From: Escherichia phage JEP8
Reading direction: 5' to 3' (one strand)
Sequence record: MT764208.1
DNA: 64,000 bases
In this document: one piece after another, positions 13,355 to 63,127 of the stretch
Layout: every line of letters starts with the position of its first letter
How positions within the stretch are numbered: the first letter of the stretch is position 1
Program-made: the position numbers and the translations under genes
The notes under the pieces: model-generated
Seen by the model: the letters and a program-made list of their open reading frames with translations, nothing else
Databases searched by the model: none
What the model was told of the DNA's origin: nothing

Positions 13355-13382
13355 ATTATACATTAGCTAATCAAGTTGTCAA
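13355..13382 (-). promoter_or_regulatory. Early promoter (TTGACA-16-TATAAT) with conserved leader
   Basis: Minus strand TTGACA acttgattagctaatg TATAAT, then leader CACATCGAAAACAACGAGAGGA. Confidence 0.5.
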
Positions 13383-15859: not shown

Positions 15860-15887
15860 ATTATAGCATACTCCCTTCGCATGTCAA
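15860..15887 (-). promoter_or_regulatory. PeSL-like early promoter
   Basis: Minus strand TTGACA ...gggagtatgc TATAAT actccc; hairpin spans the -10. Confidence 0.5.
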
Positions 15888-21220: not shown

Positions 21221-21257
21221 ATGCGGTCATTATATGATAACCGCATTTTCATGTCAA
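21221..21257 (-). promoter_or_regulatory. PeSL-like early promoter
   Basis: Minus strand TTGACA tgaaaatgcggttatca TATAAT; gcggt/accgc hairpin spans the -10. Confidence 0.45.
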
Positions 21258-23659: not shown

Positions 23660-23950
23660 TCAAATTGTAGTTTTGCGAAGATGGTCATTACATGCTTTTA
23701 ATGCATCGGTCGCGGTGTCATAGCGAGTATTATCATAGCACCAATAACCATCTGTCAACTGATAAATTAATCCATCCTTTTTAGCTTCGATGAAAGACAA
23801 TTCTTTGAAAGTTTCTACTTTCTTTGCTGATACTCCACGGTCACGTCGCTTATACAGTTTAGCTAAAATGCGTTCAGCTTGTTCCTCTTTATCTCCAGAC
23901 AGATCCCAGATGATGTTTCGGATATGCTTGATTAATTGTTCAGTGGTCAT
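23660..23950 (-). CDS. Hypothetical protein
   Basis: 96 aa after cassette RBS AGGAGAATCAAAG. Confidence 0.5.
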   Translation of the reverse strand: MTTEQLIKHIRNIIWDLSGDKEEQAERILAKLYKRRDRGVSAKKVETFKELSFIEAKKDGLIYQLTDGYWCYDNTRYDTATDALKACNDHLRKTTI

Positions 23951-23969: not shown

Positions 23970-23997
23970 GTATGCGTGCATTATAGCATTGTGATTA
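23970..23997 (-). promoter_or_regulatory. Early promoter (TTGACA-16/17-TATAAT) with conserved leader
   Basis: Minus strand TTGACA ...TATAAT then leader and GGAGAATCAAAG. Confidence 0.5.
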
Positions 23998-24051
23998 TCT
24001 TTGTCAACACCCAAAAACAAAAAAGGCTACCCCGAAGGATAGCCCATAAAA

Positions 24052-24831
24052 TTACACGCGAGCACCGTAGATCGTGCCTACTTTATCCCAGCGAGGGGCA
24101 TTGCCAGTAACAGCCTTACCAGCCGCTCCGCCATTATATTCCGATCCCCGTCCACGGATATTACATTTACCACCAGCGCCACCAGCATCACCACCGTTAC
24201 CGCCATTATATACACCGTTGACAGACCCTTTACCTGGCGCGGAAATAGTACCAGCAGTAGCACCCTGTTCCATTTTAGCAGACCCACCAGCAGCGCCAAA
24301 TGGACGACCGCCGCCACCTCCAAAAGTCAATTTCATTTGTGGAAAAGGAGACCAGTATCCTCCGCCACCACCACCACCGCCACCGCAAATAGCGCCGTTA
24401 TTTGTGATGCGTAAGCGTGTGCCTATACCGTTGTTAATTGCATTACCACCAGCACCACCAGCGGAGTTATTGCCACCATTACCACCACGCCCCCAAACAT
24501 GAACACCTGCATTAATGATCAATGTTACATATTCGTTTGTTAACGAGCTAGGGAAGTCAAGACAAGGAACGCCAGTAGATTGGGAAACAATATTACCCGT
24601 GATAGTAATTACTACCGGAGTAGATCCTTGTGCTTTCATCCAGTTAATAAGAGTGTCTTTATTGTAAGAGTTACTAGCACCAATGCTATAATGAATCTCT
24701 TTAGAGCGTCCGACCATTGCCGACATATACGCCGGACGACCTAAGCGTACAGCTTGCATTGCGGCGCTCATCCACCGTTGACCAGTCTCGGACACCGCAG
24801 ATGATCCTACCCATCCAGAAGATATTGCCAT
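24052..24831 (-). CDS. Glycine-rich protein resembling T2/T6-type gp38 tail-fibre adhesin
   Basis: 259 aa; N-terminus MAISSGWVGSSAVSETGQRWMSAAMQAVRLG..., then glycine-rich blocks (GRGGNGGNNSAGGAGGN, GGGGGGGGGYW, GGGGGRPFGAAGG, GGNGGDAGGAGG). Resemblance to gp38 is from memory, not a search. Confidence 0.55.
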   Translation of the reverse strand: MAISSGWVGSSAVSETGQRWMSAAMQAVRLGRPAYMSAMVGRSKEIHYSIGASNSYNKDTLINWMKAQGSTPVVITITGNIVSQSTGVPCLDFPSSLTNEYVTLIINAGVHVWGRGGNGGNNSAGGAGGNAINNGIGTRLRITNNGAICGGGGGGGGGYWSPFPQMKLTFGGGGGRPFGAAGGSAKMEQGATAGTISAPGKGSVNGVYNGGNGGDAGGAGGKCNIRGRGSEYNGGAAGKAVTGNAPRWDKVGTIYGARV

Positions 24832-24845
24832 AAAATTTCCTCACA

Positions 24846-24868
24846 AGAAAAGCCCCAATTAAGGGGCA
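24846..24868 (-). terminator. Rho-independent terminator (minus strand)
   Basis: Hairpin gccccttaattggggc followed by TTTTCTTGT, directly upstream of the gp38-like gene. Confidence 0.5.
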
Positions 24869-24885
24869 TTGATTGATAATATTAC

Positions 24886-25107
24886 TTAGATGACCTCTGC
24901 TTCACCATCCAGGAAGAAAGACCATGTTTTGTTAGGATAGCGAAGCGCCCATGATTCAGCAGTTTTAACACCAGCTTCGAACAATTGACGGCTGGTTACT
25001 TTAGCCATACCATCTTCGATGGCAACGTTTTCAATAATCATCGGGTACTTAGCGCCACGCATGAAACCGAAACCAGCGGAAGATTTGATAATTTTAACAG
25101 TTGCCAT
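24886..25107 (-). CDS. Hypothetical protein
   Basis: 73 aa after cassette RBS AGGAGAATCAAAA. Confidence 0.5.
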   Translation of the reverse strand: MATVKIIKSSAGFGFMRGAKYPMIIENVAIEDGMAKVTSRQLFEAGVKTAESWALRYPNKTWSFFLDGEAEVI

Positions 25108-25148: not shown

Positions 25149-25177
25149 ATTATGCAATAACACCGGAACGCTGTCAA
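25149..25177 (-). promoter_or_regulatory. Early promoter (TTGACA-17-CATAAT) with conserved leader
   Basis: Minus strand TTGACA gcgttccggtgttattg CATAAT then CACACATCGAAACGAGATACAC leader. Confidence 0.5.
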
Positions 25178-26390: not shown

Positions 26391-26419
26391 ATTATGCTAT
26401 ACCCTATTCCGGTTGTCAA
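26391..26419 (-). promoter_or_regulatory. Early promoter (TTGACA-17-CATAAT)
   Basis: Minus strand TTGACA accggaatagggtatag CATAAT. Confidence 0.5.
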
Positions 26420-26430
26420 CACCTAAAAAC

Positions 26431-26460
26431 GAAAAAGCCACCCTTTCGGATGGCTTTTGA
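26431..26460 (-). terminator. Rho-independent terminator (possibly bidirectional)
   Basis: Hairpin agccatccgaaagggtggct flanked by A-run and T-run. Confidence 0.55.
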
Positions 26461-27376: not shown

Positions 27377-27445
27377 AAGTCATTCCCCCAGATTTAAAAA
27401 TATTCAGTTATATTTATAATCTGGGGCTTTATTTATGATTAACTC

Positions 27446-53340: not shown

Positions 53341-53369
53341 TTGACAATCTTGTCTGGTAAAGGTATAAT
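53341..53369 (+). promoter_or_regulatory. Consensus sigma70 promoter (TTGACA-17-TATAAT) inside the late module
   Basis: TTGACA atcttgtctggtaaagg TATAAT, then leader GCTCACATCTAAACAACGGAGGATAAATT-ATG (same leader family as the minus-strand cassettes). Confidence 0.7.
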
Positions 53370-62386: not shown

Positions 62387-63127
62387 ATGTTTAACAACAC
62401 TCTTTTTGCTCGCCTTGAATCGCAAAAGGATTATGAGAATACACGACAAACAGAGATTCTTAATCCTTATGTGAACTTTCACAAATATACAAATACTCAG
62501 ACGTTAGCCGACGTTATGGTCGCCGAAGCTATACAGATGCGAGGTGTAGAATTATATTACATCCCTCGTGAATTTGTCAAGCCAGATATGATCTTTGGTG
62601 AGGATGTTCAAAGCAAATTTACTAAAGCATGGAAATTTGCGGCTTATATTAACTCATTTGATGGGTATGAAGGAGCGGGTAATTTCTTCTCTAGTTTCGG
62701 GTATCAAGCTAATGACGAACTAACTTTTACGGTTAACCCCAACCTATTCAAACATCAAGTAGATGATCAAGAGCCAAAATCAGGTGACTTGATTTATATT
62801 CCAATGAGTAATGATCTATTTGAAATTAATTACGTCGAGCCATATCAGCCGTTTTTTCAGGCTGGCAAAAATGCCATGCGTAAAATTATTGCAGAGAAAT
62901 TCGTGTATAGCGGCGAGGAATTGCGACCAGAATTACAACGCAATGAGGGCATTAATGTTGATGAGTTCGCAGATCTGGATCTTGCACCGATCACTAATCT
63001 GGACGGGTTAACAGATATCAACTTAGATCAGTACAAAGAAGATAAGCAATTCAGAAGCGAAGGACAAGATTTTATTGATCCGTTTGATCCTATTAATGGC
63101 ACTGGTTCACCTTTGGCTAATTTTTGA
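62387..63127 (+). CDS. 14: Neck protein gp14
   Basis: 246 aa (T4 gp14 256 aa); position between gp13 and gp15. Confidence 0.8.

What the first reader, a model, noticed from the sequence alone, without database searches (positions are those of the whole stretch)
24052..24831. Ectopic gp38-adhesin-like glycine-rich gene in the early region, with a slippage-prone poly-Gly codon tract
The 259-aa protein has an N-terminus and glycine-rich blocks (GRGGNGGNN, GGGGGGGGGYW, GGGGGRPFGAAGG, GGNGGDAGGAGG) that I recall as hallmarks of T2/T6-type gp38 receptor adhesins, which normally sit after gene 37 in the late tail-fibre locus. Here it is on the early-gene strand between tk and nrdC, preceded by a terminator and with no late promoter. 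The nine-Gly run is encoded by near-repetitive GGN codons (about 24360-24390), which could slip. It may be a reservoir adhesin, a decoy or exclusion factor, or a recombination donor for host-range switching.
Basis: partly seen in the sequence, partly recalled or inferred. Interest (0 to 1): 0.75.

Follow-up and report, generated by a model that had tools for sequence, protein, structure and literature searches.

The report
Displaced gp38 tail-fibre adhesin gene
This is the phage's one and only long-tail-fibre tip adhesin (gp38), sitting far from the other fibre genes as is already known for RB49-like phages, so it is a working host-recognition gene in an odd place and not a spare or decoy copy.

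Summary
In detail: a 259-aa ORF at 24052..24831 (-) is a full-length gp38 adhesin (Pfam GP38 5e-73; S16 gp38 structure 2e-50). It lies between tk and nrdC on the early strand, behind a hairpin, with no TATAAATA late promoter nearby.

The window is a Krischvirus (RB49-like). The displacement of g38 in this group has been published since 2002 and restated in 2011, 2025 and 2026.

It is the only gp38 in these genomes. The slot after g37 holds a 79-aa ORF, and RB49 host-range mutations map to this gene. The spare, decoy and exclusion readings are therefore rejected.

The poly-Gly run is the conserved central polyglycine-II helix. Its length is 7-9 in 96 of 104 sequences, so slippage is not supported.

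New detail from this work:
- The gene sits on a 911-bp cassette bounded by stem-loop/promoter elements (PeSL).
- The cassette is absent from 14 Krischvirus records, which instead carry a Tequatrovirus-like g38 after g37 (11) or no g38 at all (3). No record has two.
- Ectopic and canonical genes have swapped specificity segments, with breakpoints at the Gly motifs.

The predicted receptor is Tsx. How the gene is transcribed remains unresolved.

The parts
24052..24831 (-). g38, the 259-aa long-tail-fibre tip adhesin (receptor-recognising protein)
   Evidence: ORF. Pfam GP38 5.4e-73 plus Gp38_N 3.9e-18. PHROG 2056 4.9e-102. PDB 6F45_D (S16 gp38) 2e-50 over aa 1-257.
24712..24831 (-). N-terminal gp37-attachment domain (aa 1-40). 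This is the Krischvirus-specific type, with W7, W20 and Tyr35 in place of the third anchoring Trp.
   Evidence: Pfam Gp38_N covers 1-40. This domain is 98-100% identical among ectopic Krischvirus genes but 77% to slur13 and about 46% to kvi/FL04.
24097..24495 (-). C-terminal specificity region (about aa 113-245), made of glycine-rich motifs alternating with hypervariable loops. This is a Tsx-type allele.
   Evidence: Identity drops to 67-75% versus RB49/Cognac/kaaroe while the flanks stay at 95-100%. The HVS core is 93% identical to JK38 gp38 (Tsx) and 58-60% to OmpA-type alleles.
24358..24384 (-). Nine-Gly codon run (aa 150-158). It is the central polyglycine-II helix (GRM3) and also the 5' junction of exchanged specificity modules.
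   Evidence: It aligns to S16 151-GGGGGGGG-158. Run length is 7-9 in 96 of 104 sequences. It coincides with the breakpoint of the 93-96% identity patch between kvi and RB49.
24839..24842 (-). Shine-Dalgarno GAGG, 7 nt before the ATG
   Evidence: Sequence. The same TGAGGA-type site is used by internal cistrons of neighbouring operons.
24852..24867 (-). Upstream hairpin (5 GC pairs, 6-nt loop) followed by TTTTCTT. It is probably an attenuator between ORF73 and g38, and it is part of the cassette.
   Evidence: dG -11.2. It is annotated as a terminator in GEC-3S and is absent from the empty site in kvi.
24024..24045 (-). Downstream terminator hairpin (9 pairs, TTCG loop) followed by a T6 tract. 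This is the stem-loop half of a PeSL.
   Evidence: dG -14.7. Its T-tract plus -35 box is 92% identical to the PeSL at 26413-26437.
23980..24007 (-). Perfect sigma-70 promoter TTGACA-N16-TATAAT that drives the downstream ORF96. This is the promoter half of the PeSL.
   Evidence: Scores 12 of 12. It is one of 6 perfect sites in the window against 0.13 expected. It is annotated as a promoter in GEC-3S.
23975..24885 (-). The 911-bp g38 cassette: hairpin, SD, g38, terminator, promoter. This is the segment with no counterpart at the empty site of 14 Krischvirus records.
   Evidence: Homology to kvi ends at the ORF73 stop codon (24886) and resumes at 23974. In kvi, 37 bp (TTGACA-CGGGGAGAAATCCCCG-TATAAT) occupy the same place.
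24886..25107 (-). ORF73, a small early ORF of unknown function (phrog_7345) directly upstream. It is co-oriented with g38 and probably co-transcribed with it.
   Evidence: It is conserved next to ORF96 in empty-site genomes.
25149..25177 (-). Sigma-70 early promoter TTGACA-N17-CATAAT upstream of ORF73. It is the nearest promoter able to feed g38.
   Evidence: Scores 11 of 12. It is annotated as a promoter in GEC-3S.
23660..23950 (-). ORF96, a small early ORF (phrog_14129) directly downstream, served by the PeSL promoter
27411..27418 (-). Nearest T4-type late promoter (TATAAATA) on the g38 strand. It lies upstream of rI, 2.6 kb from g38, and is separated from g38 by two terminator hairpins.
   Evidence: It equals RB49 Pl:48756. 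The intervening terminator at 26458..26433 is.

Best explanation
The gene is the phage's single, functional gp38. This monomeric adhesin caps the gp37 trimer at the tip of each long tail fibre and reads the host receptor through hypervariable loops displayed on a polyglycine-II sandwich. The window comes from a Krischvirus (RB49-like phage). In this genus g38 lies about 55 kb from g37, inside the hyperplastic early region between tk and nrdC. It sits on a 911-bp cassette bounded by a hairpin on one side and a stem-loop plus consensus sigma-70 promoter (PeSL) on the other.

Shown here: the protein's identity, that it is the only copy, the cassette boundaries, the presence/absence polymorphism, and module exchange with canonical-locus g38 genes at the Gly motifs.

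Taken from the literature: adhesin function, based on RB49 host-range mutants.

Inferred:
- The receptor is Tsx, from 93% identity of the loop region to the JK38 adhesin.
- With no late promoter of its own, the gene is probably transcribed from the early promoter at 25177 through the weak ORF73-g38 hairpin. I give this about 0.5; the alternative is read-through from the rI late promoter or an unrecognised late promoter.
- The cassette was placed or removed by PeSL-mediated recombination.
For: Identity: Pfam GP38 5.4e-73 and Gp38_N 3.9e-18, PHROG 2056, S16 gp38 structure 6F45_D 2e-50 over the full length.

Genus: 98.4% nt identity to Sf20 and 97.5% to GEC-3S across 2 kb.

Sole copy: one tblastn place per Krischvirus record; no second copy in the window; GEC-3S has g34-g35-g36-g37-ORF79-holin; 41 records have a contiguous g37-ORF79-t stretch.

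Partner: GEC-3S gp37 carries the Peptidase_S74 chaperone domain.

Function: RB49 mutants E230K and Y231S in gp38 change host range, and RB49 gp38 is paired with OmpA.

Cassette: boundaries; 14 empty-site records against 43 occupied; PeSL features.

Selection on specificity: flanks and N-domain are 95-100% identical while the C-domain is 67-75%.

Module exchange: kvi canonical versus RB49 ectopic g38 are 45-57% nt identical, then 93-96% over about 240 nt, with breakpoints at Gly motifs.

Receptor: together.
Against: No expression data exist for any Krischvirus in the searched literature. A virion protein driven only by an early promoter would be unusual, and the hairpin before the gene could terminate most transcripts.

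The window does not contain its own tail-fibre locus, so 'sole copy' rests on relatives that are 97-98% identical.

KFS-EC combines the ectopic g38 with a kvi-like gp37 tip, so pairing between adhesin N-domain type and gp37 tip is not strict.

The third anchoring Trp is a Tyr in this N-domain.

The empty-site PeSL is not a simple deletion product of the occupied allele, so the direction of the event is unresolved.
Confidence: 0.9

Rival explanations
1. It is an additional adhesin kept alongside a canonical g38: a reserve allele, or an intragenomic recombination donor for host-range switching.
For: It lies far from g37 and is flanked by recombinogenic PeSL elements. Its specificity segment is exchangeable with canonical g38 genes of other phages.
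Against: None of the 57 Krischvirus records examined has two g38 genes. The 41 type-A records and KFS-EC have none after g37, and all 14 empty-site records lack the ectopic one. There is only one tblastn place per record.
Confidence: 0.03
2. It is an early-expressed decoy or superinfection-exclusion factor that blocks the receptor, and is not a virion component.
For: It is on the early-gene strand, has no late promoter, and the nearest promoter is sigma-70 type.
Against: The N-terminus (MAISSGWVGSSAVSETGQRW) has no signal peptide, so the protein cannot reach an outer-membrane porin from inside the cell. It has an intact gp37-attachment domain. Host-range mutations in RB49 map to it. Without it, these genomes would have no adhesin for a gp37 that ends in a cleavable S74 chaperone domain.
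Confidence: 0.02
3. The GGN tract is a slippage-prone contingency tract that varies the length of the Gly run to alter specificity or to switch the gene.
For: Nine consecutive GGN codons include (GGT)4. TRF gives period 3, 6.7 copies. One homologue has a run three residues shorter in an otherwise identical context (VIAGGGGGGYWSP versus VIAGGGGGGGGGYWSP).
Against: Slippage by whole codons cannot switch the frame. The run is 9 Gly in all 7 close Krischvirus genes compared, and 7-9 in 96 of 104 sequences; most differences are substitutions at its C-terminal end. It is the central, fully hydrogen-bonded PGII helix 3 of the sandwich, so its length is structurally constrained. Codon choice is mixed (GGT/GGC/GGA), and the longest perfect repeat is 12 nt.
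Confidence: 0.05
4. The gene is a normal late gene. It is transcribed by gp55 polymerase from the rI late promoter at 27411 by read-through, or from a non-consensus late promoter that consensus searches miss.
For: Late read-through past hairpins occurs elsewhere in this genus: g37 in GEC-3S also has a hairpin and no TATAAATA of its own, and must be read from the g36 promoter. The rI promoter is on the same strand.
Against: The promoter is 2.6 kb away, and two terminator-like hairpins lie in between, including an 11-pair stem at 26458..26433. There is no match with one mismatch or fewer within 690 nt upstream, and none in the published HMM scan of RB49.
Confidence: 0.4

Closest known systems
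RB49 g38 (RB49p079, NP_891650) and the ectopic g38 of other Krischvirus phages (Phi1, JSE, GEC-3S, Sf20, Cognac49, FL37/FL38)
   Same: Same locus, same flanking genes, same cassette. The N-domain is 98-100% identical. It is 98% identical overall to the Sf20 and GEC-3S proteins. Displacement from g37 has been described in print.
   Different: The specificity domain is a different allele from RB49's: 70% identity over aa 146-259, Tsx-like here versus OmpA-like in RB49.
Salmonella phage S16 gp38 (PDB 6F45 chain D)
   Same: It aligns over the full length at E 2e-50, covering the attachment domain, the beta-helix and the polyglycine-II sandwich, including the long central Gly helix.
   Different: In S16 the gene follows g37. 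The hypervariable loops differ. The third anchoring Trp of S16 is Tyr35 here.
Canonical-locus T6/T2-type g38 of Tequatrovirus (slur13, JK38, T6)
   Same: Same family and same architecture. The specificity core is 90-93% identical to slur13 and JK38. JK38 and T6 use Tsx.
   Different: Those genes sit in the late operon g37-g38-t. DNA homology to the window stops at the ORF ends, from codon 5 to 4 nt past the stop. Nucleotide identity is only 78-82%, so the shared allele is not a recent transfer.
PeSL promoter-early stem-loop cassettes (Arbiol et al. 2010; Comeau et al. 2014)
   Same: A stem-loop plus a near-perfect TTGACA-N16/17-TATAAT promoter, located in a hyperplastic region at the edge of an insertion/deletion difference between close relatives.
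   Different: Those papers describe mostly ORFans of unknown function as cargo, and neither mentions g38 as a PeSL-bounded module. Here the cargo is an essential virion protein.

Membership tests
gp38 tail-fibre adhesin (Pfam PF05268 + PF21721; T2/T6/S16 type) | Full-length match to the GP38 and Gp38_N profiles above the curated cut-off | tested here: met
   GP38 scores 245.9 bits (cut-off 25) over aa 45-259, covering profile positions 1-218 of 218. Gp38_N scores 65.6 bits over aa 1-40.
gp38 tail-fibre adhesin (Pfam PF05268 + PF21721; T2/T6/S16 type) | Sequence homology to the solved adhesin across all three domains | tested here: met
   6F45_D at E 2e-50, query 1-257 against chain 1-247. Also 9v85 (a gp38 fusion) at 5.5e-31.
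gp38 tail-fibre adhesin (Pfam PF05268 + PF21721; T2/T6/S16 type) | Conserved glycine-rich motifs alternating with hypervariable segments, including the long central Gly helix | tested here: met
   The motifs are visible in the translation. They are position-conserved in 103 homologues. Variation is confined to the segments between them. The architecture is as described.
gp38 tail-fibre adhesin (Pfam PF05268 + PF21721; T2/T6/S16 type) | Three conserved anchoring tryptophans in the attachment domain | tested here: inconclusive
   W7 and W20 are conserved. The position aligned to S16 W36 is Tyr35 in all ectopic Krischvirus genes, whereas slur13 and kvi keep Trp there.
gp38 tail-fibre adhesin (Pfam PF05268 + PF21721; T2/T6/S16 type) | Partner gp37 ending in a self-cleaving S74 chaperone domain, and not in a T4-type receptor-binding tip | tested here: met
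   GEC-3S gp37 has Peptidase_S74 at aa 814-873, E 9.8e-12. This was tested in a 97.5%-identical relative, because the locus lies outside the window.
gp38 tail-fibre adhesin (Pfam PF05268 + PF21721; T2/T6/S16 type) | Gene lies immediately downstream of g37, in the late g37-g38-t operon | tested here: not met
   The gene lies between tk and nrdC. In GEC-3S the slot after g37 holds a 79-aa ORF. Synteny is typical of the family but does not define the protein. Type-B Krischvirus phages keep the canonical arrangement.
gp38 tail-fibre adhesin (Pfam PF05268 + PF21721; T2/T6/S16 type) | [quoted passage not shown] | not testable with these tools
   Literature evidence for the orthologue: RB49 gp38 E230K extends host range, and the RB49-OmpA assignment comes from genome-wide screens.
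PeSL-bounded mobile module | Stem-loop joined to a near-consensus sigma-70 early promoter at the module edge | tested here: met
   Hairpin 24045..24024 plus TTGACA-N16-TATAAT at 24007..23980. It is similar to the PeSL at about 26437-26413.
PeSL-bounded mobile module | The module is present or absent between closely related genomes, with break points at the element | tested here: met
   911 bp in the window against a 37-bp PeSL in kvi, which is the same species as RB49. There are 14 empty and 43 occupied records.
PeSL-bounded mobile module | Recombination at the element actually moved the module | not testable with these tools
   The two alleles cannot be derived from each other by a single deletion or insertion, because the promoter spacers differ and no copy of the kvi variant exists in the window.
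Slippage-prone contingency repeat | Long perfect tandem repeat with length polymorphism among close relatives | tested here: not met
   The longest perfect repeat is (GGT)4, with a TRF score of 33. The run is 9 Gly in all close relatives and 7-9 in 96 of 104 sequences.
T4-type late gene | TATAAATA late promoter shortly upstream of the gene or its operon | tested here: not met
   No match with one mismatch or fewer within 690 nt upstream, and none in the published RB49 list. g34 and g36 of GEC-3S have exact sites at -36 and -41.

The most novel reading that the evidence does not exclude
The only adhesin of the long tail fibre is made from a sigma-70 early transcription unit (promoter 25177, ORF73, attenuator hairpin, g38), so an essential virion protein is uncoupled from the gp55 late programme. 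Phages of the same species carry g38 either on this early-region PeSL cassette or in the late g37-g38-t operon, and never both. The genus therefore offers a natural experiment on whether the timing of adhesin synthesis matters. It also shows that PeSL elements can relocate a structural gene and not only accessory ORFans.
Probability: 0.4. Interest if true: 0.45.

Novelty: already known. Interest (0 to 1): 0.2.

Why it matters
As stated, the finding re-describes a published feature of RB49-like phages, so it matters little by itself.

Two side results may be useful to people who engineer or predict host range.

First, the position of g38 is not fixed in the genus. 43 records have the early-region cassette, 11 have a Tequatrovirus-like g38 after g37, and 3 have no g38 at all. 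Annotation pipelines and receptor predictors that look only next to g37 will therefore miss or mis-assign the adhesin. The 2026 statement that displacement dates to the last common ancestor of the genus also needs qualifying.

Second, specificity segments have moved between ectopic and canonical genes, with junctions at the Gly motifs. The two loci therefore draw on one shared pool of receptor-binding modules.

The unanswered question is how a late-acting protein is expressed from an early-type context. A single time-course RNA-seq experiment would answer it.

Tried and rejected
1. RegB escape. I asked whether g38 avoids the GGAG motif that the phage RegB nuclease cuts in early mRNAs. Its SD is GAGG, but only 16 of 36 neighbouring genes have GGAG, so this does not discriminate.

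2. Cryptic late promoter. There is no TATAAATA with one mismatch or fewer within 690 nt upstream. The TAATATTAT string shared by the g37 and g38 leaders has 3 mismatches to the consensus and was dismissed.

3. Remnant of g38 in the canonical slot. ORF79 has no similarity to gp38, and KFS-EC ORF107 has none either.

4. Strict co-variation between gp37 tip type and gp38 N-domain type. KFS-EC breaks this, because it pairs a kvi-like gp37 with the ectopic g38.

5. Recent transfer from Tequatrovirus into the ectopic gene. Rejected: nt identity is 78-82%, and homology is confined to the ORF.

6. A recombination partner for the empty-site PeSL within the window. None was found.

7. Literature search for Krischvirus transcriptomes. 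One query was too broad to be useful, and a stricter one returned nothing. The Desplats 2002 paper is not held.

8. Structure prediction was not run, because the match to a solved structure made it unnecessary.

Full report
**Observation.** The ORF is exactly as described: 24052..24831 on the minus strand, 259 aa, with all four quoted glycine blocks. The nine-Gly run is aa 150-158 (nt 24358-24384), encoded as GGT GGC GGT GGT GGT GGT GGC GGA GGA. TRF scores it as a weak period-3 repeat (6.7 copies, score 33). A hairpin with a T-rich tail lies 21 nt before the ATG (24867..24852, dG -11.2). On that strand there is no TATAAATA, even with one mismatch, for 690 nt upstream. The nearest exact site is at 27411-27418, in front of rI. 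The published late-promoter scan of RB49 agrees: its only site in this neighbourhood is the one before rI. The genus does use the T4-type late promoter, since g34 and g36 of GEC-3S carry exact TATAAATA at -36 and -41.

**Identity.** The protein matches Pfam GP38 over the whole profile (5.4e-73) and Gp38_N (3.9e-18), and PHROG 2056, 'tail fiber protein; host specificity'. It also matches the solved Salmonella phage S16 gp38 over aa 1-257 (E 2e-50). The window itself is a Krischvirus: the 2-kb neighbourhood is 98.4% identical to Shigella phage Sf20, 98.2% to GoldenSnicker, 97.5% to GEC-3S and about 90% to RB49.

**Already published.** Trojet et al. [quoted passage not shown] The RefSeq RB49 record annotates the orthologue as 'g38; similar to T2 and RB69 gp38 adhesin'. 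A 2025 paper notes that gp38 of Krischvirus FL37 and FL38 is not near the holin. A 2026 preprint says gp38 lies about 55 kb from gp37 in its five Krischvirus phages. In GEC-3S the fibre locus reads g34-g35-g36-g37-ORF79-holin, and g38 lies 55.4 kb further round the map on the opposite strand.

**Sole copy and function.** tblastn finds one gp38 place per Krischvirus record. The window has no second copy and no g37. GEC-3S gp37 ends in a Peptidase_S74 chaperone domain, the arrangement in which gp38 caps the cleaved fibre tip. RB49 mutants selected for a new host carry E230K, with or without Y231S, in this gene, and genome-wide screens pair RB49 with OmpA. The protein has no signal peptide. The reserve, decoy and exclusion readings are therefore rejected.

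**The Gly tract.**
- The run aligns to S16 151-GGGGGGGG-158, the central, fully hydrogen-bonded polyglycine-II helix of the sandwich domain.
- Among 104 sequences (the window protein and 103 full-length homologues), the block is fixed in position, and the run is 7-9 residues in 96. Most differences are substitutions at its C-terminal end.
- All 7 close Krischvirus genes compared have nine.
- Whole-codon slippage could not switch the frame, and the longest perfect repeat is 12 nt. The tract is a structural element, not a contingency locus.

**A cassette, and a polymorphism.** In phage kvi (classified in the species Krischvirus RB49), the homologues of ORF73 and ORF96 are adjacent, 61 nt apart, with no g38 between them. 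Alignment shows that homology to the window ends at the ORF73 stop codon (24886) and resumes at 23974, just after the -10 box. In the window, 911 bp replace 37 bp of kvi. The 911 bp comprise the hairpin, SD, g38, the terminator hairpin and TTGACA-N16-TATAAT. The 37 bp in kvi are TTGACA-CGGGGAGAAATCCCCG-TATAAT, a stem-loop lying between the promoter hexamers. Both are PeSL-type elements as defined by Arbiol et al. and Comeau et al.. The one after g38 resembles another 2.4 kb upstream, and the window holds six perfect consensus promoters against 0.13 expected.

Across the phage collection, the ectopic site is occupied in 43 records and empty in 14. The 14 empty-site records split as follows:
- Eleven have a g38 directly after g37: kvi, FL04, FL15, FL20, MIZ4, MIZ5, LF73P4, KMB43, G5211, Skers and G2494.
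- Three have no g38 at either site: G2248, UPWr_E1 and G37-3. They have a longer g37 followed by three paralogous ORFs of about 100 aa.

The 43 occupied records are the 41 with contiguous g37-ORF79-holin plus KFS-EC, which is counted twice. No record has two g38 genes.

The g37-3'-end plus g38-5'-half module of the canonical-slot genomes is 88-90% nt-identical to many Tequatroviruses such as HP3, RB14, KEP10 and fPS-65. The Krischvirus flanks find no such matches. That module therefore looks imported.

KFS-EC is an exception to neat pairing. Its gp37 is kvi-like, its slot holds a fused remnant of the three-ORF array, and it depends on the ectopic g38.

Which state is ancestral is not settled. 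The two alleles of the ectopic site cannot be interconverted by one simple deletion or insertion.

**Module exchange.**
- Among ectopic genes, the flanks and the N-domain are 95-100% identical, while the C-terminal domain falls to 67-75% against RB49, Cognac and kaaroe.
- The kvi canonical g38 and the RB49 ectopic g38 are 45-57% identical at DNA level over the first 420 columns, then 93-96% over about 240 nt, then divergent again. The junctions fall at the poly-Gly tract and at the last Gly motif.
- FL04 (canonical) and GEC-3S (ectopic) share a 60-nt stretch at 100% identity just after the poly-Gly tract.

This is the motif-mediated shuffling already described for T-even adhesins, here operating between genes at two different loci.

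**Receptor.** The loop-bearing core (aa 159-240) is 93% identical to JK38 gp38, 78% to T6 and 74% to FL04, all of which use Tsx. It is 58-60% identical to the OmpA-type RB49 and kvi/FL20 alleles. Tsx is therefore the prediction. This is an inference, not a test.

**Expression: the open point.** The nearest promoter able to feed g38 is the sigma-70 site at 25177..25149 before ORF73 (11 of 12), which the GEC-3S authors also annotated. The intervening hairpin is modest, with five GC pairs and a broken T-tract. g38's ribosome-binding site looks like those of internal cistrons in neighbouring early operons. Read-through past a similar hairpin is evidently how g37 is expressed in GEC-3S. RB49 lacks a motA orthologue and T4-type middle promoters. 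I consider early-promoter transcription slightly more likely than late read-through from the rI promoter, which lies 2.6 kb away behind an 11-pair terminator. No transcript data were found, so this stays an inference.

**Verdict.** It is a known, genus-typical, functional adhesin gene, not a spare or a decoy, and the Gly tract is not a slippage device. Interest is low for the finding as stated. It rises to modest for the cassette polymorphism and the unexplained expression route.

Noticed in passing
L014:498-1404 (G2248); also L016:503-1403 (UPWr_E1) and L018:493-1399 (G37-3): Three Krischvirus genomes have neither an ectopic nor a canonical g38. A longer g37 is followed by three tandem paralogous ORFs of about 100 aa (starting MGYW, MAGW and MAFW, each with an FDIPNGW motif and Gly-rich stretches), then Dc5 and holin. 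This may be a different fibre-tip system.
   Followed up: partly
L011:4071-4394 (KFS-EC): The 107-aa ORF in the slot after g37 looks like a fusion of the first and third of those paralogues. It has no PHROG match. KFS-EC combines it with a kvi-like gp37 and the ectopic g38.
   Followed up: partly
L002:18807-19046 (GEC-3S ORF79 / RB49 Dc5): A 79-aa protein with a hydrophobic N-terminus (phrog_402, function unknown) is conserved immediately upstream of the holin gene in all three fibre-locus types. It has no similarity to gp38.
   Followed up: partly
window:24726-24728 (codon 35 of g38): All ectopic Krischvirus gp38 proteins have Tyr where S16, Tequatrovirus and kvi-type gp38 have the third of the three anchoring tryptophans. 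This may reflect a different gp37 tip pocket.
   Followed up: no
window: 13355-13382, 15860-15887, 21229-21257, 23980-24007, 62551-62580 (all -) and 53341-53369 (+): There are six perfect TTGACA-N15-18-TATAAT promoters in 64 kb against 0.13 expected by shuffling. This fits the dense PeSL-type early promoters reported for RB49 and phi1.
   Followed up: partly
window:18534-19636, compared with L001:91-1922: GEC-3S has an HNH homing-endonuclease gene between dam and nrdC. In the window dam abuts nrdC, so the endonuclease seems to be absent.
   Followed up: no
L013:595-1394 (G5211): The canonical-slot g38 of G5211 is annotated as two overlapping CDS (595-708 and 657-1394). This suggests a frameshift, a sequencing error near the 5' end, or a mis-called start.
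   Followed up: no
L010:3048-4187 (kvi): The last ~626 nt of g37 and the first ~476 nt of g38 in kvi-type Krischvirus phages are 88-90% nt-identical to many Tequatroviruses. This indicates exchange of the fibre-tip module between genera.
   Followed up: partly
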